Shown here piece after piece: positions 7,991-50,258 of a stretch of 64,000 nt of DNA; positions within the stretch are counted from its first letter, which is position 1; each line of letters opens with the position of its first letter. A program made the translations under genes and the position numbers. The DNA is from Methanomassiliicoccaceae archaeon. GTDB taxonomy: Archaea > Thermoplasmatota > Thermoplasmata > Methanomassiliicoccales > Methanomassiliicoccaceae. The DNA lies in contig CAVSJV010000017.1 of assembly GCA_963728405.1 (NCBI GenBank), positions 1-64,000 of the forward strand, read 5' to 3'. Below the pieces are notes generated by a model that was given only the letters and a program-made list of their open reading frames with translations, was not told the origin of the DNA and ran no database searches.

Positions 7991-8481
7991 GCCCTTTCGA
8001 TAGAACGTAGGTCCAAGCAGACCTCCTCTTCCCATAGCTCATTTTTTAACGGCCGACCACCCCGAGAGCGTATCGACGAGCATCCGGGCTCTCACAGCAG
8101 GTCAATTCTTCGACCAACGGCCGCTAGATGACGGAGAACTAGCCTCTACCTCGCGGCCAATTTCCTCTCAAGTTTTTCCCTTCGATCGCAGCCTAAATGC
8201 CATAAACGACATAACCTGATCGGACGCTCTGTTCGGTTACAGGACGGACCAGTGTCTCGACCGGCCTTAGGTCTGAGAATGCAGACCTTGGCCCTCGCTC
8301 TTTAACTAACTCTCTTCCCCCCCCCTATTTTTTTCATAACTGGCCCTGTCGAGATAAAACATGAAGTTTGTCAACCTGTTTGATCTGAAAGAAAATCGAT
8401 AGCATCCGAGCACCTTCCACATCGCTGAAGGTCTGTTGCACATAATGAAAAAATATGAGGAAAAGATTATCTTTGCTTTTT

Positions 8482-8955
8482 TTACTTCTTCCGCCTTCGC
8501 ATATACACGAATATTAGTAACGCTGTAGCCAGCAGTCCTACGATGACTATGACTGCATACGACATCACGCTCGAGCTTTCGTTCGACGCAAAGGTCTCCA
8601 CGTTGCCCATGCCCAGACCGGAGTCGCCGACATTAATAATCATGTCCCGTGTTTCAATTCCCGGCCCACTGAAAGTCAAGGTGTGTTCTCCGGGAGAGGA
8701 CATCATGACGAAGTTGCCTTGAGCCCCCGTTGTTACTGAGGATTCGTTCTCCAATTTTACAGTAATTCCAGCTAGTCCGTTTCCGTTGGAGTCCAGAACT
8801 TTCCCACTGACGGGAACAGTAACATCGCTTATTTCGGCACTGGTAGTACCTACGATCAATGCCATCATTGACGATATTAACAATAAGATTACGATTGTCG
8901 AACCTATCGCTCGGATATTCTGTTTCTTCCACATACGATCTTCACACCTTATCAT
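8482..8955 (-). CDS. Carboxypeptidase-regulatory-like (prealbumin fold) domain membrane-anchored protein
   Basis: Signal peptide, VSGKVLDSNGNGLAGITVKL..TTGAQGNF..PGEHTLTF, then a TM helix and RRRKK. Confidence 0.8.
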   Translation of the reverse strand: MIRCEDRMWKKQNIRAIGSTIVILLLISSMMALIVGTTSAEISDVTVPVSGKVLDSNGNGLAGITVKLENESSVTTGAQGNFVMMSSPGEHTLTFSGPGIETRDMIINVGDSGLGMGNVETFASNESSSVMSYAVIVIVGLLATALLIFVYMRRRKK

Positions 8956-8964
8956 AATTGCCGA

Positions 8965-9480
8965 TCATTTTCGAGATCGGCCATGGACAACAATCGTGCC
9001 ACATAATAAACTAACAGGCATAGAAAAACCGGTTGGGTGGTAGTGCCCATAGTTCGACCAGCTTTGAGCATTCCTTGCTAGGGAATGTATGCCGAGGGTG
9101 GGGCGGGGGATGAGTCCGGCCTCTTTGACGATCAATAGATTAGGTTCTATCTCCGAGGCGTTCCCCAGGAAGGCGTTGATGAAGACGTGATTACGCCCAC
9201 CTGGCAGGACCGCCCTGGTCGAACCGTCCTTGCCGAGGCGGTCCATGACCTTGGTGGCGAGAGGCGCTTCCGTTCTTCTGAAGGTCATAACCGACAGACC
9301 GTTGACCACAGTGATGTCGATCTCCGCAACGAAGGCCCTGATCACTCCCTGACCCATCAGCTCCTGGACGCGCTTATGGACGGCCGGCACGGAGATGCCG
9401 AGGACCTTTGCCAGCTCCTGATATGATGTCCTAGAGTTCTTGATAAGCTCTTTGCACAATACTACGTCGGCCCGGCCCAT
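8965..9480 (-). CDS. Lrp/AsnC-family winged-helix regulator, C-terminus possibly truncated
   Basis: DVVLCKELIKNSRTSYQELAKVLGISVPAVHKRVQELMGQGVI. The C-terminal part runs into AT-rich, unrelated-looking sequence. Confidence 0.75.
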   Translation of the reverse strand: MGRADVVLCKELIKNSRTSYQELAKVLGISVPAVHKRVQELMGQGVIRAFVAEIDITVVNGLSVMTFRRTEAPLATKVMDRLGKDGSTRAVLPGGRNHVFINAFLGNASEIEPNLLIVKEAGLIPRPTLGIHSLARNAQSWSNYGHYHPTGFSMPVSLLCGTIVVHGRSRK

Positions 9481-9611
9481 GGTAAAGCCATCATGGTTCT
9501 GGGACATTACAAATAATTGCCCCGCTGAGGTCACCATCGATCGATGGAGAGAGGGCCATTTGGCCGAAAGTACCATATCGTAGGCCGTGGCACGTCCTTA
9601 TTGCGATTTAT

Positions 9612-10025
9612 ATGGTCAACATCCCTGAGGAGGTCCTTAAGATCGTCAATGAGATTGGGGCGGTCAAGACCCTAGCCACCATGTTCCCTGGCGAGAGAAG
9701 GCTGCATACCATCCAAATGGGCAGTTTAACGGCCGTGAGCGCCGACCGCCTCATCTTCGGGCGGGTGCTGACCAGGAGGTCCCACGCCAACCTCGTGGAG
9801 ATGAAAGAGAACAGCGAACTGGCCTCCGTGCTCGTTAACTTCGAGAAACGGTCCTACGAGATCATGGCCAAGCCCCTGGAATATGCTGAATCCGGAGATG
9901 TGCTGGACAAGATCAACGATATCCTGAAGCCCATAGGCGTAAAGGCGTTCGGGGTTTGGACTCTGGAGCCGGTCGAAGTGTGGAACCAGTGCCCTGGTCC
10001 GTGGGCGGGCAACAAGATGGCCTGA
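9612..10025 (+). CDS. Pyridoxamine 5'-phosphate oxidase-like FMN-binding protein
   Basis: IPEEVLKIVN..VKTLAT...SHANL...SYEI; size and pattern fit archaeal split-barrel flavoproteins. Confidence 0.7.
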   Translation: MVNIPEEVLKIVNEIGAVKTLATMFPGERRLHTIQMGSLTAVSADRLIFGRVLTRRSHANLVEMKENSELASVLVNFEKRSYEIMAKPLEYAESGDVLDKINDILKPIGVKAFGVWTLEPVEVWNQCPGPWAGNKMA

Positions 10026-10620: not shown

Positions 10621-12078
10621 ATGTCAGAAACGAGCGAACATTGCGGTCTTCAACGTTGCATTGATTGGAAACAGGGCCTGTTGATCGGGATTGGCATCCC
10701 CTTGGCCATTCTACCGGTCATCGTGCCCACCACGTTCTTCCTGTGGGCCGCATCGATCCTGCTGTGGGCCATGTCGGTGGTCCAGGGATTCATGCAGAAC
10801 ATGGCCTTCGGCGAGCTGGCGGCGGCCTTCCCCAACGCCAGCGGCATTCCCGGTTTCACCCAGGAGATATTCAAGGACAAGAACGGCGCCGATAAGAAGT
10901 ATGAACGGGGCCGATTGATAGGTGGGTTCTGCGGCTGGGCCTATTGGCTGGTGTGGGCTCCCGGCCTGGCCATCTTCATCATCGTCATCTGCGGCTACAT
11001 GATCGGCCTGTTCCCCACCCTTGCCGACATGGACTTCCTGACCCTGAACCTCATCGTCGGGGGCCTTATCCTCGGCGGCCTGGCCTTTGTGTCCTCCCGA
11101 GGGCTCAAGCACAGCGCCAGGCTTGGGTTGGTCGTAGGGGTGTTGACCCTCCTTCCCATAGCTATCATCGCCCTGGCGCCATTCTTTACCGGTAACTTTC
11201 ACATGGAGAACATCACCACCGCCCTCGTCCCCGCTGACTGGACCTGGGACGGGGACCACATCATGATGCTCCTCGGCGTCGCGGTCATCGCCCAGTGGAG
11301 CGCTTGCTGCTGGGAAGTGGTGGCGGTCTACGGGCCGGAGTACAAGAAGCCCAGCGTCGATCTGCCCAAGGCCCTGTTCGCCTGCGGCATCGTCTGCCTC
11401 ATTATGTTCGTGCTCATCCAGACCTCGGTCATCGGGGCGTTGGGTGTCGAAGGTGTGCTGGCCGAGCCGATCTCCCCGCTGCAGCCGGTCGCGGCCATGG
11501 CCTTTGGGAGCTTTGGTGCCTCAGTGGTCATCCTGTTCCTGATCTTCGCCTGCGTCCTCCTGATCCAGATCGGCTACTCCGCCGGAGCCAGGGCCATGCA
11601 CTCCATGGCACTGGCAGGCAACCTGCCCAACTGGTTCTCGAAGACCAATTCGAAGGGAGAACCGATGCGGGCCATCTATGTCATCGCCGCGTTCAACCTC
11701 ATTCTACTGGTCATACTGCAGGGGGATCCCGTGGCCATCCTGGCCATGTCGGCCATCGGCTATGTGTTCGTGTTCGCTATCGCCTTGTTCGCTTACGTCA
11801 AAGCGAATCGCGATCCCGAGCTGAGGAAGATAGAAAGGCCGTACAAGGCACCGAGGGGATGGGTGTGGGTCGCCCTCGCCCTGGCCATATTCCAGATACC
11901 CTTCCTCCTCTTGGGAGCGATATACATCAACAACCTGGAGTACGGGTGGATCACCAATCTGATCGGGTTCGGCGTCCTGGCGTTGTTCTTTCCGCTGTGG
12001 ATCTACTCCCAGCACCAAGCCCACCGGTTGAGACAGAGCAAGAAGGAGGAGGTCGACGGCAAGGCCGAGCCCAACTGA
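10621..12078 (+). CDS. APC-family permease resembling the methylamine permeases MtmP/MtbP
   Basis: About 12 TM helices. IDWKQGLLIGIGIPL N-terminus, ELAAAFPNASGIPG, YGPEYKKP and ERPYKAP. Confidence 0.88.
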   Translation: MSETSEHCGLQRCIDWKQGLLIGIGIPLAILPVIVPTTFFLWAASILLWAMSVVQGFMQNMAFGELAAAFPNASGIPGFTQEIFKDKNGADKKYERGRLIGGFCGWAYWLVWAPGLAIFIIVICGYMIGLFPTLADMDFLTLNLIVGGLILGGLAFVSSRGLKHSARLGLVVGVLTLLPIAIIALAPFFTGNFHMENITTALVPADWTWDGDHIMMLLGVAVIAQWSACCWEVVAVYGPEYKKPSVDLPKALFACGIVCLIMFVLIQTSVIGALGVEGVLAEPISPLQPVAAMAFGSFGASVVILFLIFACVLLIQIGYSAGARAMHSMALAGNLPNWFSKTNSKGEPMRAIYVIAAFNLILLVILQGDPVAILAMSAIGYVFVFAIALFAYVKANRDPELRKIERPYKAPRGWVWVALALAIFQIPFLLLGAIYINNLEYGWITNLIGFGVLALFFPLWIYSQHQAHRLRQSKKEEVDGKAEPN

Positions 12079-13046: not shown

Positions 13047-13113
13047 AGGCTGAACCCAATGATAACTATCGTAATATGAAGATAAAAATTGTTTGGGTCA
13101 TCACCCCGTTCGC

Positions 13114-13530
13114 TTACTCGCTGGTCTTGCCGTCGAAGTGCTCTTCCGAAGCCTCGGCATCGGCCTTGGTCTTTCGGACGACCTTGTCCTGGTGCTCTGG
13201 GGGCGAGTAGATGGTGTACAGCTTCAGGGACCTCTTTCCGGTGTTCACGACATTGTGCATTGCCCCGGACGGAACGATGGCCGCGCTGCCACCCTTGACC
13301 ACGTATTCGTTGCCGTTTATGATGACCATGCCTTCGCCCTCCTCGAACCGGAAGAACTGATCGATCTCGTCGTGCTTCTCCATGCCAATGTCTTCGCCCG
13401 GCTTGAGGCTCATCAGCACGAGCTGGCTATGCTTGGCCGTATATAGCACCCGCCGGAAGTCGGTGTTCTTTAGGGTTTCTTCCTCGATGTCGATGGCAAA
13501 GCCATTCTTGGTATCCATTTTTGTAGCCAT
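13114..13530 (-). CDS. Cupin domain protein
   Basis: NTDFRRVLYTAKHSQLVLMSL.PGEDIG.E.H..DQFFRFEEG, HNVVNTG, KLYTIYSPPEH. Confidence 0.92.
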   Translation of the reverse strand: MATKMDTKNGFAIDIEEETLKNTDFRRVLYTAKHSQLVLMSLKPGEDIGMEKHDEIDQFFRFEEGEGMVIINGNEYVVKGGSAAIVPSGAMHNVVNTGKRSLKLYTIYSPPEHQDKVVRKTKADAEASEEHFDGKTSE

Positions 13531-13633
13531 GGTATCAAGATAGTTCTTCGACCTCTCGGTATTTAGCGTTGGTCCAGAAAATGAGCGGGCCGGACACCTC
13601 GGCCTTATAACACCGCACAACGATTCTATCACT

Positions 13634-14668
13634 ATGAACCCGCGGGAACGCTTCCATGCCGCCCTAGACCAGGAGACCGTCGACCATGTTCCCTTATTCT
13701 ACCAGCATCTAGGGGCGGCCAAGTGGCTGCTGCGGTCGACCGGCCTTCGGATGTTCGACGGCTTCCACGATCCGGAGGTTTTCGCCAAGCTGTCCATGGC
13801 CGCCTACGACCAGTACGGCTTTGATAATGTGATGGCCGGGTGGGGCGATATACTGGTGGAAGCACAGGCCCACGGGACGGTGTGGAAGTTCCCAGAGCGG
13901 GATTTCTACCCACGGGTGGAGAGGTACATGCCGCTCAGCGACATCGACAAGGTTCAGCCCGTCGATCCGCTCCAGGACCGCTTCTGGTCGATCCCATTGA
14001 AGGCCGCCCGCATCATGATGGACCGGATAGGAAAGGAGGTGGCGGTGGTCGGCTGCATCAACTGTCCAACGATGATCGCCTCCGAGCTGGTGGGCATGGA
14101 GAACCTGATGCTCGCCTACATGACCGAGCCGGAGCCGGTGCTCCGTCTGATGGACACCCTGACCGAGTCGTCCCGACGATACGGCCAGAGGCTCGCCGAA
14201 CTAGGGGTCGAGGACGTTTTCATCGAGAACGCCACCGCTGGCCAGGAGATGGTTAGCTTGGAGATGTATGAGCAGTATGACCGCCGCTATCTGCAGGCGG
14301 AGATAGACTCGTTCCGAAAGGCGGGGCTGAGGACCATCCTGCACAACTGCTCGGCCCAACCGTACTGGCGCTCCCAACTGGAGACGGGGCCGACCGCACT
14401 GCACCTCCACCTAAGGGCGGTGAACGTTCCCGAGGTCTTCGCCGAGATCAAAGGACACGCGTGCATGCTGGCTGGGGTTGACCACATGGAGCTGCTGTTC
14501 GCAGGGACCCCGAAGGAGGTGGAGAATGAGGTCAAAGGGACCCTAGCCCAATGGGGGAAGGGGCCCGGCCTGATCGTCAGCTCGGGGTGCGAAATGCCTT
14601 ACAAGACCCCGGAAGAGAACATAAAACGGCTCAAGGAGAGTGTGTTAAAGTATGGGTCTGGCCTTTGA
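13634..14668 (+). CDS. Uroporphyrinogen-decarboxylase-fold methyltransferase (MtaA/CmuA, MT2-type)
   Basis: MNPRERFHAAL..ETVDHVP, VEAQAHG, and the Zn motif ILHNC...SSGC. Confidence 0.88.
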   Translation: MNPRERFHAALDQETVDHVPLFYQHLGAAKWLLRSTGLRMFDGFHDPEVFAKLSMAAYDQYGFDNVMAGWGDILVEAQAHGTVWKFPERDFYPRVERYMPLSDIDKVQPVDPLQDRFWSIPLKAARIMMDRIGKEVAVVGCINCPTMIASELVGMENLMLAYMTEPEPVLRLMDTLTESSRRYGQRLAELGVEDVFIENATAGQEMVSLEMYEQYDRRYLQAEIDSFRKAGLRTILHNCSAQPYWRSQLETGPTALHLHLRAVNVPEVFAEIKGHACMLAGVDHMELLFAGTPKEVENEVKGTLAQWGKGPGLIVSSGCEMPYKTPEENIKRLKESVLKYGSGL

Positions 14669-14831
14669 GCAATGCGATCGTCGGACCGCTCTCTCCTCGG
14701 ACCAGGGTTTGGGTCCATATTAAGGACCGGCCTGCGCAATTGTAAGATATGACCAGAGCTTTTATCGATGAACGGCCATACCTGTTCGACTGGGTCCTGG
14801 CATAGGATGAGGTCTTTGGCTGGTCGAAAAG

Positions 14832-15605
14832 ATGATGGATATGGCTAAGAACTGGCCCGTGGTGCCAGGCGACTACATGATCGGGGACAGGGACAGCCCG
14901 GTGGCCGTCCTCATCATAGGGCGGGGGACCGTTTCCCTACCAGACCAGCGGTTCGCCATAAAGGGGACCGTGAAGACCGAGAACATGGGGGTGGAAAAGG
15001 TCATCACCAACATCGTTGCCAACCCTCACATCCGTTTCCTCATCGTGTGCGGAAGGGAGGAGTTCGGGCACTTCCCCGCCGACGCCATCGCCTCGCTTGT
15101 CAAGAACGGCGTGGACGGACAGATGCGCATCATCGGTTCGCGCTCGGCCATCCCGTTCCTGTGCAATCTGCCCCGGGCAGCGGTGGAGCGGTTCCGGGAG
15201 CAGATCGAGATCGTGGACCTCGTCCATCCCAAGGATGCCCGGGAGATCGTGGCCTACGACCCCGAATACAAGTTCGAGGAAGAACGGACAGCGGATCTCC
15301 GACAGGCCATCGAGGACTGCCGGTCCAGGGACCCCGGGACTTTCCCGGGAGAACCGTTCCTGATCGCAAGCAAGAGCCTGATCGCCGATGGTTCCAAAAT
15401 AGCGAGCCAGCTGAACAAACTGGCCGATGATTTCGTGGGACAGATGCTACGCATGCCCAGCGAGAGGCTGAGCACCAGCGCGTCCATCGCGGTCATATCT
15501 TCGGAGTTCCGGGTCATCCTCGACCCAGTGGATGGAGTGGTGCGGACGGTGCCGTCGGTGGAGTTCGCCGGTCGCCTCCAGAAGTATCTAAGAGGAGAGC
15601 AGTGA
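14832..15605 (+). CDS. mtrA: MtrA/MtxA-like corrinoid protein lacking a C-terminal membrane anchor
   Basis: WPVVPGDY..GD.DSPVAV, KTENMGVEKVITNIVANPHIRFLIVCG.E..GH, IPFLCNLP..AVERFREQIEIVDL. Confidence 0.9.
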   Translation: MMDMAKNWPVVPGDYMIGDRDSPVAVLIIGRGTVSLPDQRFAIKGTVKTENMGVEKVITNIVANPHIRFLIVCGREEFGHFPADAIASLVKNGVDGQMRIIGSRSAIPFLCNLPRAAVERFREQIEIVDLVHPKDAREIVAYDPEYKFEEERTADLRQAIEDCRSRDPGTFPGEPFLIASKSLIADGSKIASQLNKLADDFVGQMLRMPSERLSTSASIAVISSEFRVILDPVDGVVRTVPSVEFAGRLQKYLRGEQ

Positions 15606-15606
15606 C

Positions 15607-16497
15607 ATGATGCGTTTTCACAACGAGCAGACGGAGTTCACCATATCCGGGGTGCGGTTCGGAGGACAGCCGGGGAGAAGGAGGACCGCGATGATCGGTT
15701 CGATGTGCTATCCGCGGCACAGCATCGTGGAGAACAGGATAGCGGGGACCTGCAAGCCGGACTCGTTCGAGCGGCTGCTCTCGGGACTGAACGCGGCTTC
15801 ACGGGAGACCGGAACGCCGGCCGGGGTCATGCTCTATGCAGAGACGGCCCAGGCCATGGAAGCATACCTGAGGGCCGCGGCCGATCTGACCCCCTCCCCC
15901 CTGTTCGTTGACTCCCCGAGCCCTGAGGTGCGCCTGGCCGGCTGCCGTGCGGCGGGGGAGATGGGCATTGGCGACCGCATCATCTATAATTCGCTCTCCG
16001 CCGGCGCTACCACGGAAGAGCTGAACGGGATCAAAGATTCGGGAATCAAGGCGGCGGTCCTTCTGGCATTCAATCCCAAGGATATCGAGACCAAAGGGAA
16101 GATCTACCTGCTGGAGGACGGCGGGGGCATCCTGCCCAACGGCCTCATCGAGATGGCTCGGTCCGCCGGCATCACCATGCCGTTGCTCGACACTGCGGTG
16201 ATGGCCGCCGACCAGAACGCCGGTGCATCCCTGAGAACGATCATGGTGGCGAAGGCCAAGTGGGGCCTGCCCTGCGGCTGCGCGCTACACAACGCCATCG
16301 AGTCGTACGGTCCATTGACCAAACTGGAGGGCGACGACCGGAAGATCTATCGCTATGTGGACGTGGCCTCGGTGGTCATGCCCATGATGGCCGGGGCCGA
16401 CTTCGTCATGTACGGTCCGCTGGAATATGCTCGCCGAGCATTCCATGCGGCGGGGTTCGCCGACGAGATGCTGAGGCAAGCGGCCTCGGACCTCTGA
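15607..16497 (+). CDS. mtrH: MtrH/MtxH-like methyl-tetrahydropterin methyltransferase
   Basis: RF..EQ..F.I.GVRFGGQPG...AMIGS..Y..H, LFVDS, IYNS, LLDTAV, GADFVMYGPLE. Confidence 0.9.
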   Translation: MMRFHNEQTEFTISGVRFGGQPGRRRTAMIGSMCYPRHSIVENRIAGTCKPDSFERLLSGLNAASRETGTPAGVMLYAETAQAMEAYLRAAADLTPSPLFVDSPSPEVRLAGCRAAGEMGIGDRIIYNSLSAGATTEELNGIKDSGIKAAVLLAFNPKDIETKGKIYLLEDGGGILPNGLIEMARSAGITMPLLDTAVMAADQNAGASLRTIMVAKAKWGLPCGCALHNAIESYGPLTKLEGDDRKIYRYVDVASVVMPMMAGADFVMYGPLEYARRAFHAAGFADEMLRQAASDL

Positions 16498-16505
16498 GCC
16501 TGCGG

Positions 16506-18486
16506 TCAGAGCGAGTCTATCGTCGGTGGCCGGTCGGCCGATCGCCCGGGCTCGGACCCTCAATTGCACCAGCTCGTCCTTCTGGAGGATGCTGTTGGAC
16601 CGCCCCCGCTCCTCCTCGAGCATAAGCTCCACCCGAAGGTCGACGCCTCCCGCGCTCCTTGCCCGCTCTAAAGCATACTTATTGGCGAGTACCTTGGCCT
16701 GGGAAACCGCCTCCACCTCACCTCCACAGGCTATCGGCGAATTGAAGCTGGAGAACACTGCGTAGCCCTTGTCCCGCGGATAGACATAGACGTCCACGTA
16801 TTCCGATACTTGCCCACACACCGCGCCCACGGCGTTCCCGACGTCATGGTCCTCGGGGATGATCACCGTTACATGCAGTCGCTCCGAGAGGGGGGCGATG
16901 AACACCCCGGCGGGTGCGCCCAGGCCGACCACCGGCCTATCAATGGTGGCCTTCAGCCCCAGGGTGGCGCATTGTCTTTTTCCACTCACCAGGTCCATCA
17001 CTCCCTGGAAGGCCGGGGCGTCCGGTAAAGCTCCTACCTCGTCCGAGAGGAGCTTTCTTAGCAGCTCATCGGCGATCAGGGCGGTGACCGTGTCCAACAC
17101 CGACGCGATCGTCTCTTCCTCGGTCCTCCTCAGCACGGCGGAGAACAGCCTGACCCCTTCCCGGGATGCGGCGGCATCCCCTTTGACATACAGGCCGGCG
17201 GCGTGCAGGACATCGGTGGGGGTGAGGCCGATACCGATGATCGCGCCCTGGGCCCGGAGGCTCTTAAGGAACGAATCTAGAAGTATGGCCTCGTCCAGGT
17301 CGATCTTCAGCTCGGAGGGGGCCAGGGGGCCGTTCTTCCGAAGGTGGTCGACGATCCGCGATTCGGTGGGCGATAGTTTGAAGCCGTCCTTGGGAGAAGC
17401 GTATAGAAATCGGGCTTGACCCAGTGTTGCCATCTTTTCTGCCAGCCCAGGGAACTGCAACGAGGCAAAGCAGAGCGGAATGACTCGTTCTGGACCGATG
17501 ACCAGGCCATCGGTAAGGGAGGCCCGGATCTCGGAATCGCCACCCAGACCAGTGGTCCACATATCCACCGCCTCCACCCTGGTCCGCCACATTCCAACGG
17601 TGGAACCATCAGTGGTGACCTTTGGAAAACCGTTCTGCAGGACCGCGATGTCGGTGGAAGTTCCCCCAATATCGATAACCACGCAGTCATCGTGGCCGGA
17701 GAGCACCCGTCCGCCCATGGCGCTGGCGGCCGGTCCGGAAAGGATCGTGTCCACCGGTCGTTCCATCGCCGTCCTGATGTTCATCAGGGTGCCATCGCCC
17801 TTGAACACCATCGAGGGCAAGCGATCCCCGCTCCGACATTATTACCTGGACCTTGCCGAGGAAATCGCTGAGCACGGGGATGAGCCTGGCGTTCAGCACG
17901 GCGGTGACGGTGCGCTCGTGGATGCCCAGTTCCCCGGTGAGCTGGTGACCCATCACCACCGGGACCCCGTACCGGTCCTTGATCATCTTGGCGACCTCCA
18001 GCTCGTGGTACGGGTTATGAACACTGAAAAGGCCGGAGACCACGATGGAATCGACCTGAGGGGCCATCTCTCTCACTGCTGCGTCCAGGCCATCGGTGTC
18101 CAGGATCGCCAGGGAACGCCCTCGGTACACTCATGGCCGCCGGCCAGGAACCTCTGCACCTTTGCTCCCAGGTCCCAGCCTTGCTGTGGTGTCCACCCCA
18201 GTCCGATCAATCCGACCGAACCGCCCTTGCCCTCCAGGATGGAGTTTGTGGCCAGGGTCGTGGACACCCCCACCAGGGCGGGATCGAAGCTTAGGGCTCC
18301 GAACGCGGCCAGAACGGAATCGACCGCCTCACCAAGACCGATGCTGAGATCGTGATGGGTCGTCCGCGCCTTGGCCTTGGCCAGCACACGGTCGGTGCAC
18401 AGGTCCACCACCGCCGCGTCGGTGAACGCACCCCCAGTATCGATACCCAATCCATAGATGCGGTTGGAGCCTGAGGCCGGGTTCAT
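16506..18486 (-). CDS. Hydantoinase/oxoprolinase-family (ASKHA) protein, split by frameshifts
   Basis: GLGIDTGG.FTDA and STTLATNSILEG (18073..18663); HER..TAVLNARL (17687..18130); TILSGPAAS, DIGGTSTD, GLGGDS and VGNAVGA (16285..17820). The 3' end is uncertain because the open frame reads into mtrH antisense. Confidence 0.85.
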
Positions 18487-18816
18487 GTCATCTACCTGTG
18501 TCCCTGCGCCCATCGTTCCTAACGGCCCAATGGCACAACGGACCACTGATAATGACGGAGGAAGGGTATAACCTCTGCTCCGAATCTCGTTGGACGAAAG
18601 AGAGGGGGCGTTCCCGCCCTGCGCCTTCTGCCTCGACCTGTCATCGACCTCATTGAGCTTCAAAGAGAGAGCTGCCTCGCCTGACCTCGGTCGAACATGT
18701 CCGGGTCATCGGCATCGTCTGCGATTCTCCCTCTGAGCATGCGCTTAGGCCCATGCACGATGGACGGGGGGTGGCCGATCGGACGGCTGAAGGCAAAATG
18801 CGAGAGCGCCTGGAGC

Positions 18817-19404: not shown

Positions 19405-20466
19405 TCAGTATCTACCGTCCCGGTGGCAGGCGTCTATCATGATCTTCAGGTTGTCCAGGGGGATCCCCCGGTGGACGGAGCAGGAACACATCATAACGTA
19501 ACCGCCCCCCGGAGCGCAGGTGGCCAGGTACTTTTCCGTCTCCCGACAGATCCGCTCCGCTGGACCGAACAGCAGCGTGGTGAACACATCCGCCCCTCCC
19601 AGGATGCAAACCTGGTCCCCCCATTCCTGCTTGGCCCTGACAAAGTCGTTCAGCTCCGCGAACTGGAAGCCCCTGATCCCCTGCTCGATGGACGCATCGA
19701 CCAGAGAAGATAGGTCTTGATCGGTGAAGACCCCATGAGGATGGAAGATAGTAGGCAGACCACACTTCTCGGCCTCCACCACCAGCCTTCGGAGGCCCGG
19801 AACGGAGATCGAGCGGAAGACCTCCGGCCCGATGAGGTTGGGGTTATCGGATGCCGCGGCCACGAAGATGGAGCTGTTCACCCCATGGGCGGCCAAGGCT
19901 CGGATGAGGTCGCTCCCTAATCCGGTGGAGAAACGGATGGTCTTCTCCGCCAGTGCGGGGTCCAGGAGCAGATCCATTAGGAGCACGTCCAGCCCCCTGA
20001 GGATACCCGCCTTGGTGATCGGCCCTTCTAGATTCCCCACGATGGCTACGTCCCTGCCGATGCGATCTGCAGTCATTTGGTAGGAACGCAGGACGTTGGC
20101 CAGGGGAGAAGTGCGGTCCAGGTCGGGAAGTTCGGCCCGATCGATGTCCTCCGCCGTGCGGAAGGGCGGCTCCACCACGGAGGGGATGCCCCTCTTGGGG
20201 AATTGAAGCCTGCCACCCAGTGCCTCCACCTCCATGCCACAGAACTGAATGCTCCCCACCACCGCGTCGTGGCCCAGCGCCCGCTGGGCGGCCACCACCG
20301 CCTGGGACGATTTTTCGGCATCGAAACGGCCCGCGCATACCTCGGGCGTACCGTAACCGACCACATCCAGTCCAAGGGTGAGGTCGCGGAGGAAGATCGG
20401 CACGCGGTCCGGTGTACCTCCTTCCAGCGCCGTTAGCATCCGTTCACAGGGACTTTGGGCGTTCAC
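19405..20466 (-). CDS. Uroporphyrinogen-decarboxylase-fold methyltransferase-like protein
   Basis: ERMLTALEGGTPDRVP, EVEALG, EGPIT.A..LRG, GGGYVMMCSCS. The Zn motif reads IFHPH rather than HxC. Confidence 0.85.
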   Translation of the reverse strand: MNAQSPCERMLTALEGGTPDRVPIFLRDLTLGLDVVGYGTPEVCAGRFDAEKSSQAVVAAQRALGHDAVVGSIQFCGMEVEALGGRLQFPKRGIPSVVEPPFRTAEDIDRAELPDLDRTSPLANVLRSYQMTADRIGRDVAIVGNLEGPITKAGILRGLDVLLMDLLLDPALAEKTIRFSTGLGSDLIRALAAHGVNSSIFVAAASDNPNLIGPEVFRSISVPGLRRLVVEAEKCGLPTIFHPHGVFTDQDLSSLVDASIEQGIRGFQFAELNDFVRAKQEWGDQVCILGGADVFTTLLFGPAERICRETEKYLATCAPGGGYVMMCSCSVHRGIPLDNLKIMIDACHRDGRY

Positions 20467-20471
20467 AGTCC

Positions 20472-21476
20472 TCAGTCCTTCAAGGCCGTGAGAAATCTCG
20501 GGTCCGCACAGGCCGCGATGTCGGGCATCACCGTGATCTTGTTGTTGTCCAGAAGGAACTGGGCGGTCGAGTCGAGGCTGCCCATGATCTGAGGGTCCAG
20601 AGACAGACCATAGGTCAGCGTGGTCAAGCAGCGCGTCTCGTCGGTGATGCTCAGTCCGGTCTTGTTGGCGCAGATAGATATGGCATCATCATGGTTCGTT
20701 GTCATATAAGCGATAGCGCGGTCGAGAGCCCTCAGGGCAGCGGAGATCGCGGTGGGCTTCTCGGTGACCAGTTTCTGAGAGGCCATCAGCACCAGCGGGT
20801 AGGTGCTCCCCAGCCCCGTGGAGTTGGCGATCTCATTGACGTTGGCCCCGCAGGTCTTCTGCACGTTGGTGGGCCAGGGTTCGCTGCCTATGATGGCGTC
20901 GACCTGCCGGGTCTTCAGGGCGGTGGGCATGTCACTGGGGCCGAGAGAGACCTGGGTGACATCGGCCTGGTCCAGGCCGTTCTTTTCCAGCAAACGCAGC
21001 AGGGCACCCTGGCTGCTCGATCCGAACTGGACCCCGATCTTCTTACCTGCCAGATCGGTCACGTTCTGGATATCCGTCCAAGCGACCAAACGGTGCATCC
21101 CTTCTCCTCCACCATAGCTAGCCACCAGCTTCGCCCCCTGGCCCTGGGCCATCAGGGTGACCCCGGGCGCATCGCCCATCGCTCCCAGGTCCGCCGAGCC
21201 GGTGGCCAGGGCTTCCGCCGACTGTATGCCGCCAGCAACTATGAGGGCGGTGACGTTCAGGCCCTCGTCCTTGAAGAATCCCTTCTCGGCCGCGATGATC
21301 AGGGGCTCATAATCGACCTTGTTCGAGTAGGTGATCCTCAGGTCCATTGGCTCGGTCTTGCTGATGCTGTTCATCATCACCAAGGTCGCCAATACTGCAA
21401 TTATCAATACGGCGGCCACCACAATCACGGCCATCTTCGTTCCTTTATTGCTCGTACCTTCAGCCATTGATCCCAT
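20472..21476 (-). CDS. ABC transporter substrate-binding protein (NitT/TauT/SsuA type)
   Basis: TM anchor, IAAEKGFFKDEGLNV, ALATGSADL, DLAGKKIG, VDAI..SEP. Confidence 0.9.
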   Translation of the reverse strand: MGSMAEGTSNKGTKMAVIVVAAVLIIAVLATLVMMNSISKTEPMDLRITYSNKVDYEPLIIAAEKGFFKDEGLNVTALIVAGGIQSAEALATGSADLGAMGDAPGVTLMAQGQGAKLVASYGGGEGMHRLVAWTDIQNVTDLAGKKIGVQFGSSSQGALLRLLEKNGLDQADVTQVSLGPSDMPTALKTRQVDAIIGSEPWPTNVQKTCGANVNEIANSTGLGSTYPLVLMASQKLVTEKPTAISAALRALDRAIAYMTTNHDDAISICANKTGLSITDETRCLTTLTYGLSLDPQIMGSLDSTAQFLLDNNKITVMPDIAACADPRFLTALKD

Positions 21477-22300
21477 TCTCCTTTCCTTTGAAATCCTCGG
21501 TCGGTAAGATGGGGATGTAGACCTCTGCCCGCTTGCAGCCACACCGCTCCAGGACGTTCTGGAGAGAGCGGGAGACCTCCATCCTGAATTGGGCCGTCTC
21601 AGGTTGGAAGATGTCCCGGGGGCGCGGGAGGGCCACCTGCCATTCCTGGTGGATGTGGCCGGGGTTCGTGCCCAGCAGCACGATCCGGGTCCCCAGCATG
21701 ATCGCTTCCTCGATGTTGTGGGTGACGAACAGCACGGTCATGCTCTGTCGTTGCCAGATCTTCAACAGCTCCAGGTCCATGTGCTTGCGGGCCTGCTCAT
21801 CGAGGGCCCCGAACGGCTCGTCCATGAGCAGGATCTCCGGCTCGAGCACCAGGGTCCGGGCGATGGCCACCTTCTGACGCATCCCCCCGGAAAGGTCGCT
21901 GGGCCGGGTCTTCTCGAACTTGCTGAGATCCACCAGTTCCAGCATCGCCCGGGCCTTCTCCCGGCGCAAGGTCTTAGGCATCCCTTGGTTCTTCAGCCCG
22001 AACTCGACAGTTCTCGAGGACCGAGAGCCAAGGGAACAGGCTATGCTCCTGGAACACCACCCCGACCCGCGGGTCGGGCCCGGTGACCTCATTGTCGCGC
22101 AAGGTCACCCGTCCTTTTGACGGTCGTTCGAAACCAGCGGCTAGATCGAGTAGGGTCGACTTACCGCAACCGCTCGGGCCGATGAGGCAGAGGAACTCAC
22201 CTTCCTCGATGGAGAGGTCTACCCCCTTCAACGCCAGCAGGCCTTTGCCGGTCTCCCGGTCCACGAACGCCTTGGACACGTCGGAAAAGTGCAGCAGCAT
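21460..22300 (-). CDS. ABC transporter ATP-binding protein (TauB/SsuB type), frameshift near 22010
   Basis: GPSGCGKST and VFQEHSLFPWL (21974..22300); LSGGMRQK, LLMDEPFGALD and FVTHNIEEA (21460..22092). Confidence 0.92.
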
Positions 22301-22301
22301 G

Positions 22302-23216
22302 TCAGTTCTGCCCCTCCATGCCCAGCCGGTCCCGTATGCGGTTCTCTATGACGCTGAAAAGGACCTTTTCGATGAACAGGCCGATGGCGCAGACGATCAG
22401 TATGGAGACGAAGGCGGCCTCGAAATCCAGCGACCATCGCGCCTGAATGAGAACATAGCCCAGGCCGAGAGCCACTCCCACGACCATCTCGGCGGCGATG
22501 AGCACCCGCCAGCCATTGGCCAGCCCGATGCGCAGCCCGTTGATGGTCTGCAGGGACGAGGCCGGGAGTAGGACACGGTAGAAGATCGCGGTCCGACCGG
22601 TACCCATCATCCGGGCGGATTTCAGGTAGATGGACGGTACCGACCGTATGCCGCCGGCGGTGCTGATAGCAATGGTCGGCAGGACGGTCATGAAGATCAT
22701 GAAGATGGTGGCCGTTTCCCCCAGACCAAAGATCAGCAAGGCGATGGGTATCCAGGCCAGGCCGGGGATCAGCTGGAGCATGGTCATCGGGGTCATGGAG
22801 AGCTCGTGAAGGACCGAGTTCACTCCCATGGCCATGCCGATAAGTATGCCCAGGGCCGCGGCCAGCAGGTAGCCTATCCCCCAGCGGGCCAGGCTGCTGA
22901 GCATGTGATCGTAGATCGTCTGGTCGTACAATCGAGCTCCCATGAGCAGGTCGCCCAGCCGACCGGCGGTATCGAACGGCGCGGGGAAGGTGATGCCTTT
23001 CAATTGAAAGACCCAGATCGCTATGAGTTGCCAAACGAACAGGAAGAGCAACAGACCGGCCAGGCCGAGGGCCAGGCGGGAGGCCCGAAGCCTTTTCTTC
23101 CCCCCGGTGCACTCGAAATGGACGGTACCATTGGTGATGGCGTCATCGATGGCCGTAGCTTCCTGAACTGGGGTCCACCACGAAGTTATCGTTTTCCAGG
23201 TCAATTTCAGTCCCAC
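22302..23216 (-). CDS. ABC transporter permease (TauC/SsuC type)
   Basis: LQLIPGLAWIP, ARMMG, INGLRIG, W..LIAAEM, GLGY. Confidence 0.92.
   Translation of the reverse strand: MGLKLTWKTITSWWTPVQEATAIDDAITNGTVHFECTGGKKRLRASRLALGLAGLLLFLFVWQLIAIWVFQLKGITFPAPFDTAGRLGDLLMGARLYDQTIYDHMLSSLARWGIGYLLAAALGILIGMAMGVNSVLHELSMTPMTMLQLIPGLAWIPIALLIFGLGETATIFMIFMTVLPTIAISTAGGIRSVPSIYLKSARMMGTGRTAIFYRVLLPASSLQTINGLRIGLANGWRVLIAAEMVVGVALGLGYVLIQARWSLDFEAAFVSILIVCAIGLFIEKVLFSVIENRIRDRLGMEGQN

Positions 23217-47991: not shown

Positions 47992-48002
<11 letters not shown>
47802..48002 (+). CDS. DUF2116-family Zn-ribbon membrane protein
   Basis: PPHKHCLNCEEPIP....YCNEEC followed by a TM helix. Confidence 0.85.

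Positions 48003-50258
<2,256 letters not shown>

What the first reader, a model, noticed from the sequence alone, without database searches (positions are those of the whole stretch)
13634..16497. Stand-alone soluble MtrA-MtrH pair beside an MT2 methyltransferase
Seen: mtrA-like and mtrH-like genes are adjacent with no mtrBCDEFG in the window. MtrA keeps the cobalt-ligand His (CG.E..GH) but has a hydrophilic C-terminal extension in place of a TM helix. The upstream UROD-fold gene has the full HxC...C Zn motif. Established: MtrH moves methyl groups between a tetrahydropterin and the MtrA corrinoid; MtaA-type enzymes move them between corrinoid and CoM; cultured Methanomassiliicoccales generally lack the membrane Mtr complex and H4MPT. 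Inference: this is a soluble, non-ion-pumping bridge between methyl-CoM or a methylated substrate and tetrahydrofolate (folP is in this window), possibly for C1 assimilation or use of a new methyl donor.
Basis: partly seen in the sequence, partly recalled or inferred. Interest (0 to 1): 0.75.

Follow-up and report, generated by a model that had tools for sequence, protein, structure and literature searches.

The report
Soluble MtrA-MtrH methyl-transfer module
A methane-producing archaeon that lacks the membrane Mtr complex keeps only its two soluble catalytic parts, next to a zinc methyltransferase, probably to move methyl groups between folate and coenzyme M; this kind of gene pair has already been described in this order of archaea.

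Summary
Three intact genes lie at 13634-16497: a UROD-fold methyltransferase (HxC...C kept), an MtrA-like corrinoid protein (His ligand kept, no membrane helix, a conserved about 100-residue C-terminal module) and an MtrH-like pterin methyltransferase. The genome (93.75% complete) gave no MtrD, MtrE, Mer, Mch or RFAP synthase. It does have McrA, MTHFR, formate-THF ligase, an AcsE-type methyl-THF methyltransferase and CODH/ACS.

The core is already in print. Speth & Orphan 2018 described stand-alone mtrAH in Methanomassiliicoccales, noted the MtrA extension and proposed a methyl-THF:CoM methyltransferase. Later papers report it across the environmental clades.

- MtrA-like and MtrH-like co-occur in 70 of 261 genomes of the order and are adjacent in 39 of 41 loci.
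- The neighbourhood is conserved: RamA in 27 of 41 loci, and a UROD-fold methyltransferase in 26 of 30 loci with enough flank.
- The window's UROD gene is not canonical MtaA, which lies elsewhere in the genome.
- In the host-associated family, MtrA-like tracks MTHFR (8 of 9 against 8 of 165).

Best reading: a soluble, non-pumping methyl-THF/corrinoid/CoM system. No biochemistry exists for it. Interest is moderate to low.

The parts
13634..14668 (+). UROD-fold Zn methyltransferase ('UROD1-type'), 344 aa. It is a divergent relative of MtaA/MtbA and the proposed corrinoid:thiol (CoM) methyltransferase of the module.
   Evidence: Pfam URO-D E 7e-52. NCBIfam NF004889 141.6 bits (cut-off 244) and TIGR01463 124.1 bits (cut-off 235), so below all MtaA/MtbA cut-offs. 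Best solved relative is MtaA 4AY7, E 3e-19. H237/C239/C319 are kept; 17 of 20 UROD1-type rows have HNC, 3 have HND, and all 20 keep the second Cys. Orthologues at 45-84% identity lie in 22 of 41 related loci.
14669..14831 (+). 163-nt spacer between the UROD gene and mtrA, with A/T-rich TATA-like stretches. A possible internal promoter; not tested.
   Evidence: Read directly from the sequence. No promoter scan or transcript data.
14832..15605 (+). MtrA-like corrinoid protein, 257 aa. The N-terminal cobamide-binding domain spans about residues 1-145. The conserved soluble C-terminal module spans about residues 148-257 (nt 15273-15602) and stands where canonical MtrA has its membrane helix.
   Evidence: Pfam MtrA E 8e-49. 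NF002126 167.8 bits against cut-off 161 (met); TIGR01111 158 bits against 249 (not met). 5LAA E 4e-42 with the His aligned. AF2 pLDDT 87.3 and pTM 0.85; the N-terminal part matches MtrA structures at TMt 0.83-0.87. KD19 maximum 1.28. The C-terminal module is conserved in 66 homologues.
15607..16497 (+). MtrH-like methyl-pterin:corrinoid methyltransferase, 296 aa, translationally coupled to mtrA.
   Evidence: Pfam MtrH E 8e-73. TIGR01114 240.7 bits against 271.4 (not met); MtgA NF047990 175.6 bits against 550 (not met). PDB matches: M. mazei MtrH 182 bits, 8Z9U 156 bits, MtgA 6SJ8 148 bits. It is the only MtrH homologue in the genome.
16285..18663 (-). Convergent hydantoinase_A/GlmL-like ASKHA ATPase gene. 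It is a recurrent neighbour of these methyltransferase genes. In this assembly it is split over three frames and runs past its usual stop into mtrH. Its role is unknown, and whether it belongs to the module is uncertain.
   Evidence: Pfam Hydantoinase_A and Hydant_A_N on separate ORFs. tblastn with the intact 688-aa orthologue from L006 gives pieces in frames -2/-1/-2 at 62-70% identity. Found beside mtrH or canonical MtaA in 8 of 41 loci. Paralogues lie beside MtaA/RamA at C2:98391-100473 and at C17:92708-96766.

Best explanation
The locus encodes a soluble corrinoid-dependent methyl-transfer module.

Proposed mechanism:
1. The MtrH-like enzyme moves a methyl group between N5 of a tetrahydropterin, most likely tetrahydrofolate, and the cobalt of the cobamide held by the MtrA-like protein.
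2. The MtrA-like protein shuttles between Co(I) and CH3-Co(III). In the real Mtr complex, MtrA then dips its corrinoid into the membrane MtrCDE vestibule, where CoM binds. That part is absent here.
3. The second half-reaction (CH3-Co(III) + HS-CoM) would therefore be done by a soluble UROD-fold zinc methyltransferase. In this genome that is the upstream UROD1-type gene. In other lineages it is that gene and/or canonical MtaA.
4. RamA, encoded next to mtrH in most other lineages and elsewhere in this genome, would re-reduce inactive Co(II).
5. Without a membrane part the reaction pumps no ions. By thermodynamics it should run mainly from methyl-THF to methyl-CoM.

What is shown: the gene content, the conserved residues, the loss of the membrane helix, the absence of the searched H4MPT and Mtr membrane markers, the presence of THF C1 genes, and the conserved neighbourhood.

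What is inferred: THF as the pterin, CoM as the thiol, UROD1 as the partner, and the direction of flow.
For: Domains and residues.

No membrane or H4MPT context in a 93.75% complete genome. MtrE 0, MtrD 0, Mch 0, Mer 0 and RFAP synthase 0, each with positive controls.

THF context:
- MTHFR at C5:58839.
- FTHFS at C5:52342-54017.
- AcsE-type methyl-THF:CFeSP methyltransferase, 294 bits against cut-off 259.
- CdhC at C5:82705.
- McrA is present, so CoM is in use.

Pairing of the two genes. MtrA-like occurs in 70 and MtrH-like in 71 of 261 genomes of the order. The sets are the same, plus one contig-end fragment. They are adjacent in 39 of 41 loci.

Neighbourhood over 41 loci:
- MBL-fold gene 29, RamA 27, DUF169 25, UROD1-type 22, canonical MtaA 8. 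RamA from L032 scores 707 bits on TIGR04270 against cut-off 500.
- Of the 30 loci with at least 5 kb downstream, 26 hold a UROD1-type or canonical MtaA gene and 22 hold RamA.

Phyletic link to methyl-THF. MTHFR is present in 57 of 70 MtrA-positive genomes against 32 of 191 MtrA-negative ones. Within family f6 the figures are 8 of 9 against 8 of 165.

Published structure. In canonical Mtr the CoM site lies in MtrCDE and MtrA shuttles between MtrH and MtrCDE (bioRxiv 10.64898/2026.07.03.736320, passages).

Published proposal. Speth & Orphan 2018 made the same proposal.
Against: - No biochemical or expression data exist for any of the three proteins.
- UROD1-type is not tied to mtrAH. 16 of 191 MtrA-negative genomes have an orthologue at 45% identity or more, and 25 of 70 MtrA-positive genomes lack one. 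Family f4 has MtrA-like in 10 of 10 genomes but UROD1-type in only 1 of 10.
- UROD1 scores below every MtaA/MtbA cut-off, so CoM as its substrate is an inference.
- Its in-genome paralogue (47% identical) has lost both Cys ligands.
- 13 of 70 MtrA-positive genomes showed no MTHFR and 10 of 70 no CdhC. These include genomes 93-99% complete.
- By HMM and PDB scores the MtrH-like protein is nearer to H4MPT-using MtrH than to THF-using MtgA.
- Phyletic counts are confounded by relatedness among the genomes.
- MtrB, C, F and G were not searched.
Confidence: 0.55

Rival explanations
1. A substrate-to-folate demethylation system, like Mto of Methermicoccus or the bacterial O-demethylases. The UROD1-type enzyme would be the substrate-specific first methyltransferase, taking a methyl from a methylated thiol or another small methyl donor onto the MtrA-like corrinoid. 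MtrH-like would then pass it to THF for assimilation through ACS or for oxidation. CoM would not be involved.
For: - UROD-fold enzymes serve as first methyltransferases in known systems, and an MtrH-like enzyme feeds a pterin in the M. shengliensis methoxy cluster (PMC7374477 and PMC9478090, passages).
- UROD1 is not canonical MtaA, and in several loci it sits right beside a canonical MtaA, which suggests a different job.
- An APC-family permease lies 1.5 kb upstream in the window and in 2 of the 41 loci.
- The genome has AcsE, CFeSP and ACS to use methyl-THF.
Against: - The HxC...C zinc site is the kind used to activate a thiol acceptor such as CoM. That attribution is recalled, not tested here.
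- The nearest NCBIfam and PDB relatives are CoM methylases.
- No substrate is suggested by any neighbour.
- In family f4, mtrAH stands with canonical MtaA and RamA and without UROD1-type.
Confidence: 0.2
2. MtrA-like and MtrH-like form a real methyl-pterin:corrinoid pair, but the UROD gene is only a neighbour. It would be a general or paralogous methylcobamide methyltransferase serving the ordinary MtaC/MtmC-type corrinoid proteins. The methyl on MtrA-like would go to some other acceptor.
For: - UROD1-type genes occur without mtrAH in 16 genomes, and mtrAH without them in 25.
- The immediate adjacency is limited to the nearest relative (L042). In L006-L008 other ORFs lie in between.
- A 163-nt spacer with TATA-like stretches separates the UROD gene from mtrA.
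Against: - A UROD-fold methyltransferase (UROD1-type or canonical MtaA) lies within about 6 kb in 26 of 30 loci with enough flank, across several families of the order and in different gene orders.
- No other candidate for the second half-reaction is encoded nearby.
Confidence: 0.17
3. A remnant of canonical H4MPT-dependent Mtr that still works with methyl-H4MPT.
For: By score the MtrH-like protein is nearest to canonical MtrH: TIGR01114 240.7 bits, and M. mazei MtrH 182 bits against MtgA 148 bits. In a quick unrooted tree the MtrA-like clade falls in the half that holds 10 of the 11 TM-tailed sequences.
Against: Mer, Mch and RFAP synthase, the marker of H4MPT biosynthesis, gave 0 hits with controls positive. 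MtrD and MtrE are absent. Both proteins score below the equivalog cut-offs.
Confidence: 0.04

Closest known systems
Stand-alone mtrAH of environmental Methanomassiliicoccales (Speth & Orphan 2018, PMC6147122; Zinke et al. 2020 preprint; Xie et al. 2024, PMC10804542)
   Same: The same gene pair in the same order. There are no mtrB-G genes, MtrA carries a C-terminal extension, MtrH is divergent, the genome has a THF C1 pathway, and the proposed role is methyl-THF:CoM methyl transfer (passages read).
   Different: The passages I read do not mention the linked UROD-fold methyltransferase, RamA, DUF169 or MBL genes. A term search of PMC6147122 found 'ramA' 0 times and 'mtaA' only within mtaABC. Supplements could not be seen. 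Function is untested there as here.
Canonical membrane Mtr complex (MtrA-H)
   Same: The MtrA cobamide-binding domain keeps its His ligand, and the MtrH fold and the first half-reaction are shared.
   Different: No MtrD or MtrE in the genome, so no CoM site and no Na+ site. The MtrA membrane helix is replaced by a soluble module. Both proteins score below the equivalog cut-offs. No H4MPT markers were found.
mtxXAH operon of Methanosarcinales (MtxA/MtxH; function unknown)
   Same: Soluble paralogues of MtrA and MtrH encoded side by side, outside the mtr operon (PMC12978539, passages).
   Different: No MtxX-like gene was seen next to the pair in the window. NF010654 scores 147 bits against a cut-off of 279, and NF002142 scores 216 against 287. 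That NF010654 stands for MtxA is my recollection, not a tool result. MtxX was not searched in the genome.
MtaABC / MtgABC-type three-component corrinoid methyltransferase systems with RamA
   Same: The logic is the same: one methyltransferase loads a corrinoid protein, a second unloads it onto CoM or a pterin, and RamA reactivates it. MtgA is a homologue of MtrH, at 148 bits.
   Different: The carrier here has the MtrA fold, not the usual B12-binding-domain protein. The methyl donor or acceptor on one side is a pterin rather than methanol, an amine or a betaine.
CmtA of Methanosarcina acetivorans (soluble methyl-H4SPT:CoM methyltransferase)
   Same: It works alike: a soluble bypass of membrane Mtr that gives up ion pumping (PMC7374477, passage).
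   Different: Its architecture is unrelated to MtrA/MtrH as far as I recall. It was not compared here.

Membership tests
Stand-alone MtrAH of Methanomassiliicoccales (as described in PMC6147122) | mtrA and mtrH adjacent, with no membrane mtr subunits in the genome | tested here: met
   1-nt spacing between the two genes. MtrE 0 and MtrD 0 hits in a 93.75% complete genome. MtrB, C, F and G were not searched.
Stand-alone MtrAH of Methanomassiliicoccales (as described in PMC6147122) | MtrA carries a C-terminal extension instead of the membrane anchor | tested here: met
   Pfam match ends at residue 178 of 257. KD19 maximum 1.28. The extension is conserved in 66 homologues.
Stand-alone MtrAH of Methanomassiliicoccales (as described in PMC6147122) | THF C1 pathway present and H4MPT pathway absent | tested here: met
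   MTHFR, FTHFS and AcsE-type present. Mer, Mch and RFAP synthase 0 hits. FolD, Ftr and Mtd were not searched.
Canonical MtrA (TIGR01111 equivalog) | Score at or above the curated cut-off | tested here: not met
   158.2 bits against 249.15.
Canonical MtrA (TIGR01111 equivalog) | Cobamide-binding domain with the His ligand | tested here: met
   The His is aligned with 5LAA. H79 is invariant in 66 sequences. TMt 0.83-0.87 to the MtrA structures. Cobamide binding itself cannot be tested with these tools.
Canonical MtrA (TIGR01111 equivalog) | C-terminal transmembrane helix | tested here: not met
   KD19 maximum 1.28, against 2.3-3.1 in TM-tailed homologues.
Canonical MtrH (TIGR01114 equivalog) | Score at or above the curated cut-off | tested here: not met
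   240.7 bits against 271.4. The Pfam MtrH domain itself is met at E 8e-73.
MtgA (methylcorrinoid:THF methyltransferase, NF047990) | Score at or above the curated cut-off | tested here: not met
   175.6 bits against 550.
MtgA (methylcorrinoid:THF methyltransferase, NF047990) | Uses tetrahydrofolate | not testable with these tools
   Only genomic context speaks for THF.
MtaA/MtbA methylcobamide:CoM methyltransferase | Score at or above the subfamily or equivalog cut-offs | tested here: not met
   NF004889 141.6 against 244; TIGR01463 124.1 against 235.4; MtaA 114 against 400; MtbA 99 against 600. The genome's canonical copy at C2:100541-101539 scores 365.8 and 319.4.
MtaA/MtbA methylcobamide:CoM methyltransferase | UROD fold with a His-x-Cys...Cys zinc site | tested here: met
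   Pfam URO-D E 7e-52. H237/C239/C319 align with 4AY7 and are conserved in orthologues. That these are the Zn ligands of MtaA is recalled, not tested.
MtaA/MtbA methylcobamide:CoM methyltransferase | Methylates coenzyme M | not testable with these tools
MtxA/MtxH (mtxXAH operon) | Encoded together with MtxX | not tested
   The neighbours identified in the window are a cupin, UROD genes and a hydantoinase-like gene. MtxX was not searched in the genome.

The most novel reading that the evidence does not exclude
Together with RamA and a UROD-fold CoM methylase, this soluble MtrA/MtrH module is a complete methyl-THF:CoM methyltransferase. It would let 'obligately methyl-reducing' Methanomassiliicoccales make methane from methyl groups that arise on folate. 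Those methyl groups could come from formate or CO2 through the THF methyl branch, or from acetyl-CoA cleavage by CODH/ACS. That would be a folate-based hydrogenotrophic or aceticlastic route with no ion-pumping Mtr step. The conserved C-terminal module of MtrA would be the docking device that replaces the membrane stalk.
Probability: 0.15. Interest if true: 0.8.

Novelty: already known. Interest (0 to 1): 0.35.

Why it matters
The module bears on whether environmental Methanomassiliicoccales are strictly methyl-reducing, as cultured members are taken to be. If it carries methyl groups between folate and CoM, they could draw methane, or biosynthetic C1 units and acetyl-CoA, from a folate-bound pool. 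That would change substrate-range assumptions used in wetland and sediment methane budgets.

The conserved neighbourhood found here names a defined set of four to five proteins that can be expressed and assayed: MtrA-like, MtrH-like, a UROD-fold methyltransferase, RamA and perhaps the GlmL-like ATPase. The 2018 hypothesis thus becomes a bench experiment.

As a discovery it is not new, since the gene pair and its proposed role are already in print.

Tried and rejected
- Complex prediction of UROD1 (20-row alignment) with MtrA-like (66-row alignment): score 0.01 against a mark of 0.32. The verdict was no support and no evidence against, and the controls were not run. This says nothing either way.
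- Public sequencing runs for window 13100-18700: none was listed and no RNA holder was listed. Expression and the reality of the frameshifts could therefore not be checked, and read laying was not used.
- Fold of the C-terminal module alone (110 aa, pLDDT 75.6, pTM 0.52) against about 48,000 PDB representatives: best Z 4.8, nothing above background.
- Whole-protein Foldseek search: only MtrA structures match, and only over the N-terminal part. No known fold was assigned to the module. That does not show the fold is new.
- Earlier notes of this scan: none exist for this genome.
No named reference sequences were available as stored proteins. I used curated HMM cut-offs, PDB scores and a quick unlabelled tree of 142 representatives. 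In that tree five extension-bearing sequences plus P0125 form a clade with SH-aLRT 96. The careful tree search did not finish.
- Considered and dropped: that mtrAH exists to feed ACS. 10 of 70 MtrA-positive genomes show no CdhC, 73 MtrA-negative genomes have it, and the genome has its own AcsE.
- Considered and dropped: that the window's hydantoinase-like gene is a true pseudogene. Several unrelated genes in this assembly are split in the same way, so assembly indels are at least as likely.
Full report
**What is in the window.**
Three intact + strand ORFs occupy 13634-16497.
- 13634-14668 (344 aa) matches Pfam URO-D at E 7e-52.
- 14832-15605 (257 aa) matches Pfam MtrA at E 8e-49, over residues 4-178 only.
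- 15607-16497 (296 aa) matches Pfam MtrH at E 8e-73.

The mtrA stop and the mtrH start are one base apart, with a GGAG-like stretch just upstream. The UROD gene ends 163 nt before mtrA, and that spacer has A/T-rich TATA-like stretches. A TATA-like CTTATAA lies about 25 nt before the UROD start, which would fit a leaderless transcript. I read these promoter features by eye and did not test them.

- His ligand. CGREEFGH aligns with CGSEVQGH of solved MtrA 5LAA at E 4e-42. C72, G73, E76, G78 and H79 are invariant across 66 homologues.
- No membrane helix. The strongest 19-residue hydropathy mean is 1.28, in a charged stretch modelled as beta strands. Four TM-tailed homologues give 2.3-3.1.
- Zn motif. 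H237-N-C239 and C319 of the UROD protein align with LHICG and PGCG of MtaA 4AY7. Of 20 UROD1-type sequences, 17 have HNC, 3 have HND, and all 20 keep the second Cys.

**The MtrA-like protein.**
AlphaFold2 on a 66-row alignment gives pLDDT 87.3 and pTM 0.85. The model has helices at 149-164 and 186-204, three strands at 219-238 and a last helix at 242-252. Foldseek matches only MtrA structures, and only over the first 175 or so residues, at TMt 0.83-0.87.

The C-terminal 110 residues folded alone give pLDDT 75.6. Their best match among about 48,000 PDB representatives has Z 4.8, which is background level.

A full HMMER scan of 1.84 billion representatives found 672 relatives at E up to 0.001. 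Of the 150 best, only six full-length clusters and two fragments align over the extension. The rest align to residues about 4-140 or 4-180 only.

One of those six clusters (P0124, 39% identical) contains a member that its submitter labelled Candidatus Verstraetearchaeota. Its metagenome contigs L059 and L060 again have an MtrH-like gene directly downstream.

In a quick, unrooted tree of 142 corrinoid domains, five extension-bearing sequences plus P0125 form a clade with SH-aLRT 96. That clade lies in the half of the tree holding 10 of the 11 TM-tailed sequences. The careful search did not finish.

**Family membership by curated cut-offs.**

| Protein | Model | Bits | Cut-off | Result |
|---|---|---|---|---|
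| MtrA-like | NF002126 (generic subfamily) | 167.8 | 161 | passes |
| MtrA-like | TIGR01111 (canonical MtrA) | 158 | 249 | fails |
| MtrA-like | NF010654 | 147 | 279 | fails |
| MtrH-like | TIGR01114 (canonical MtrH) | 240.7 | 271.4 | fails |
| MtrH-like | NF002142 | 216 | 287 | fails |
| MtrH-like | NF047990 (MtgA) | 176 | 550 | fails |
| UROD protein | NF004889 (best of all MtaA/MtbA/CmuA models) | 141.6 | 244 | fails |

Among solved structures, MtrH-like is nearest to M. mazei MtrH (182 bits), then 8Z9U (156 bits), then THF-using MtgA (148 bits).

**The rest of the genome.**
G000 has 2.73 Mb in 18 contigs and is 93.75% complete.

Absent, with positive controls ringing:
- MtrE and MtrD.
- Mch, Mer and RFAP synthase.

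Present:
- One MtrH homologue only.
- Three MtrA-family hits: this one, a 255-aa paralogue with the same extension standing alone at C7:139987-140754, and a third copy with stop codons at C7:325830-326604.
- McrA at C2:111692.
- MTHFR at C5:58839.
- FTHFS at C5:52342-54017.
- An AcsE-type methyl-THF:CFeSP methyltransferase at C5:66002-66811, 294 bits against cut-off 259.
- CdhC at C5:82705.
- Three RACo/RamA-family genes.

So methyl-THF is a real metabolite of this organism, and no H4MPT markers were found. MtrB, C, F and G, FolD, Ftr, Mtd and MtxX were not searched.

**Which UROD gene is which.**
The genome's canonical MtaA is at C2:100541-101539. It scores 365.8 bits on NF004889 and 319.4 bits on TIGR01463, both above cut-off. 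It stands beside a 47% identical paralogue of the window's UROD gene (C2:101620-102657), a RamA (TIGR04270, 714 bits against cut-off 500) and another hydantoinase-like gene, about 6 kb from mcrBDGA.

The window's gene therefore belongs to a separate 'UROD1-type' clade. It is 24-28% identical to canonical MtaA. The paralogue at C2 has lost both Cys ligands.

**Conservation of the pair.**
Among 261 species genomes of the order, MtrA-like was found in 70 and MtrH-like in 71. The sets are the same, plus one contig-end fragment. By family the MtrA-like counts are f1 7/23, f4 10/10, f6 9/174 and f7 38/47.

In the 41 loci from genome contigs, 35 are titled Methanomassiliicocc-, 5 'Methanobacteriota archaeon' and 1 'Thermoplasmata archaeon'. 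The two genes are adjacent on one strand in 39 of them. The exceptions are a lone paralogue (L040) and a locus with a 30% identical MtrH on the other strand (L041).

Of the named proteins, nearly all are labelled Methanomassiliicoccus or Methanomassiliicoccales. One is labelled Candidatus Saccharibacteria and one Euryarchaeota.

**Conservation of the neighbourhood.**
Counts over the 41 loci:

| Neighbour | Loci |
|---|---|
| MBL-fold gene | 29 |
| RamA | 27 |
| DUF169 | 25 |
| UROD1-type (45% identity or more) | 22 |
| Canonical MtaA (50% identity or more) | 8 |
| Hydantoinase-like | 8 |
| CobW-type GTPase | 8 |

The usual order outside the window's genus is DUF169, mtrA, mtrH, then on the other strand MBL and RamA, then (CobW, a 164-aa ORF), UROD1-type, and on the other strand MtaA and the hydantoinase-like gene.

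Of the 30 loci with at least 5 kb after mtrA, 26 hold a UROD1-type or canonical MtaA gene and 22 hold RamA.

The tight order seen in the window (cupin, UROD1, mtrA, mtrH, hydantoinase-like) recurs only in the nearest relative, L042. In L006-L008 two further ORFs separate UROD1 from mtrA.

In G000 the ancestral cluster seems to have been spread over three places: the window, C2:98-104 kb and C17:92-101 kb.

**Limits of the UROD link.**
Orthologues at 45% identity or more occur in 45 of 70 MtrA-positive genomes and in 16 of 191 MtrA-negative ones. Family f4 has mtrAH in 10 of 10 genomes but UROD1-type in only 1 of 10. The UROD1-type gene is thus a frequent partner by position, not an obligate one.

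**Link to folate.**
- MTHFR is found in 57 of 70 MtrA-positive genomes and in 32 of 191 MtrA-negative ones.
- Within family f6 the figures are 8 of 9 against 8 of 165.
- In the window's own family MTHFR is nearly universal whichever way (7 of 8 against 14 of 16), so that family says nothing.
- CdhC is in 60 of 70 against 73 of 191.

Thirteen MtrA-positive genomes showed no MTHFR and ten no CdhC. Some of these are 93-99% complete. Related genomes are not independent, so these counts are descriptive only.

**Mechanism.**
In canonical Mtr, the cytoplasmic domain of MtrA moves between MtrH and the MtrCDE vestibule, which holds the CoM site (bioRxiv 10.64898/2026.07.03.736320, passages). With MtrCDE absent, the second half-reaction needs another catalyst. 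A soluble UROD-fold zinc methyltransferase is the established kind of enzyme for methylcobamide:CoM transfer.

I therefore read the locus as MtrH-like (pterin to cobalt), MtrA-like (carrier) and UROD1-type and/or MtaA (cobalt to CoM), with RamA for reductive reactivation. THF as the pterin rests on context only. By thermodynamics, which is established knowledge and was not computed here, a non-pumping enzyme should run from methyl-pterin to methyl-CoM. The reverse direction would need to be pulled by downstream reactions.

**Rivals.**
- An Mto-like system in which UROD1 loads the corrinoid from some methyl donor and MtrH passes it to THF (0.2).
- The UROD gene is only a neighbour (0.17).
- An H4MPT-dependent remnant (0.04).

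**Prior work.**
- Speth & Orphan 2018 (PMC6147122; abstract and passages) reported mtrAH without mtrB-G in a Lake Pavin-cluster genome. They noted an 'unusual C-terminal extension' of MtrA and a divergent MtrH, and proposed a methyl-THF:CoM methyltransferase.
- Zinke et al. 2020 (bioRxiv 10.1101/2020.03.09.984617; passages) found mtrAH in many environmental genomes of the order and in three SG8-5 genomes.
- Xie et al. 2024 (PMC10804542; passages) found mtrA and mtrH in most of the environmental clade.
- Adam et al. 2022 (PMC9635834; passages) note that many lineages carry MtrAH, hypothesised to feed methyl groups into the Wood-Ljungdahl pathway.
- Cozannet et al. 2020 (PMC7824343; passage) wrote that MXMAG1 has only mtrH. 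Its contig does carry an MtrA-like gene directly upstream of mtrH (L006, 72% identical), deposited as 'hypothetical protein'.

Searches for 'mtrAH', 'Methanomassiliicoccus + mtrH', 'mtxA/mtxH' and 'mtrH + methyl-tetrahydrofolate/methyl-reducing' turned up no biochemical test of this system and no description of the RamA/UROD neighbourhood. Supplements were closed and may hold gene-context tables.

**Verdict.**
The added value here is the conserved neighbourhood, the exact co-occurrence of the two genes, the correction that the upstream gene is not canonical MtaA, and the narrow distribution of the C-terminal module. Interest 0.35.

Noticed in passing
window 16285-18663 (-); also 47992-49154 (-); G000 C5:52342-54017, C5:74111-76061, C2:98391-100473: Several unrelated genes in this assembly are split over two or three reading frames: the hydantoinase-like gene, folP, FTHFS, an AcsV/RACo-like gene, and a second hydantoinase-like gene. 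The pattern suggests indel errors in the assembly rather than true pseudogenes. The UROD, mtrA and mtrH genes are intact.
   Followed up: partly
G000 C2:98391-104436 and C17:92708-101366; loci L015, L018, L020, L043: A hydantoinase_A-family ASKHA ATPase recurs next to canonical MtaA, UROD1-type genes, RamA and CobW. It has weak matches to MutL/GlmL, the accessory protein of B12-dependent glutamate mutase. It may be an unrecognised helper of corrinoid methyltransferase systems.
   Followed up: partly
G000 C7:139987-140754 and C7:325830-326604; L031 4909-5679; L040 1173-1931: A second MtrA-like paralogue (44% identical, with the same C-terminal module) stands alone in this genome. In some relatives it lies in tandem upstream of mtrA-mtrH. 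A third copy on C7 carries stop codons.
   Followed up: partly
L059 and L060 (metagenome contigs), 8001-9676: An extension-bearing MtrA-like gene with an adjacent MtrH-like gene (39-41% identical to the window's). It belongs to a protein cluster in which one member is labelled Candidatus Verstraetearchaeota by its submitter. So the soluble form may also exist in a second lineage of methyl-reducing methanogens. The taxonomy rests on that one label.
   Followed up: partly
L006 6001-6762 (MAG titled Methanomassiliicoccus sp. isolate MXMAG1): This genome was reported to carry only mtrH of the Mtr genes (PMC7824343). An MtrA-like gene, deposited as 'hypothetical protein', lies directly upstream of its mtrH.
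   Followed up: yes
window 19405-23216 (-): A second divergent UROD-fold gene (353 aa, with HPH in place of HxC) lies next to an SsuA-type aliphatic-sulfonate ABC transporter: a binding protein scoring 167 bits on TIGR01728 against cut-off 163.5, plus ATPase and permease ORFs. Coenzyme M is a sulfonate, so a link to CoM or methyl-sulfonate uptake is conceivable.
   Followed up: no
window 10621-12078 (+): An APC-family permease whose best NCBIfam match is 'trimethylamine N-oxide permease' (NF053774, 177 bits, far below the cut-off of 690). It is conserved upstream of the cupin/UROD1 genes in L007 and L042.
   Followed up: no
loci L009-L045, upstream and downstream of mtrAH: DUF169 (COG2043) lies upstream of mtrA in 25 of 41 loci, and an MBL-fold gene follows mtrH in 29 of 41. 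Both have unknown function and neither is next to mtrAH in the window's genome. No MBL homologue was found in G000 by tblastn.
   Followed up: partly
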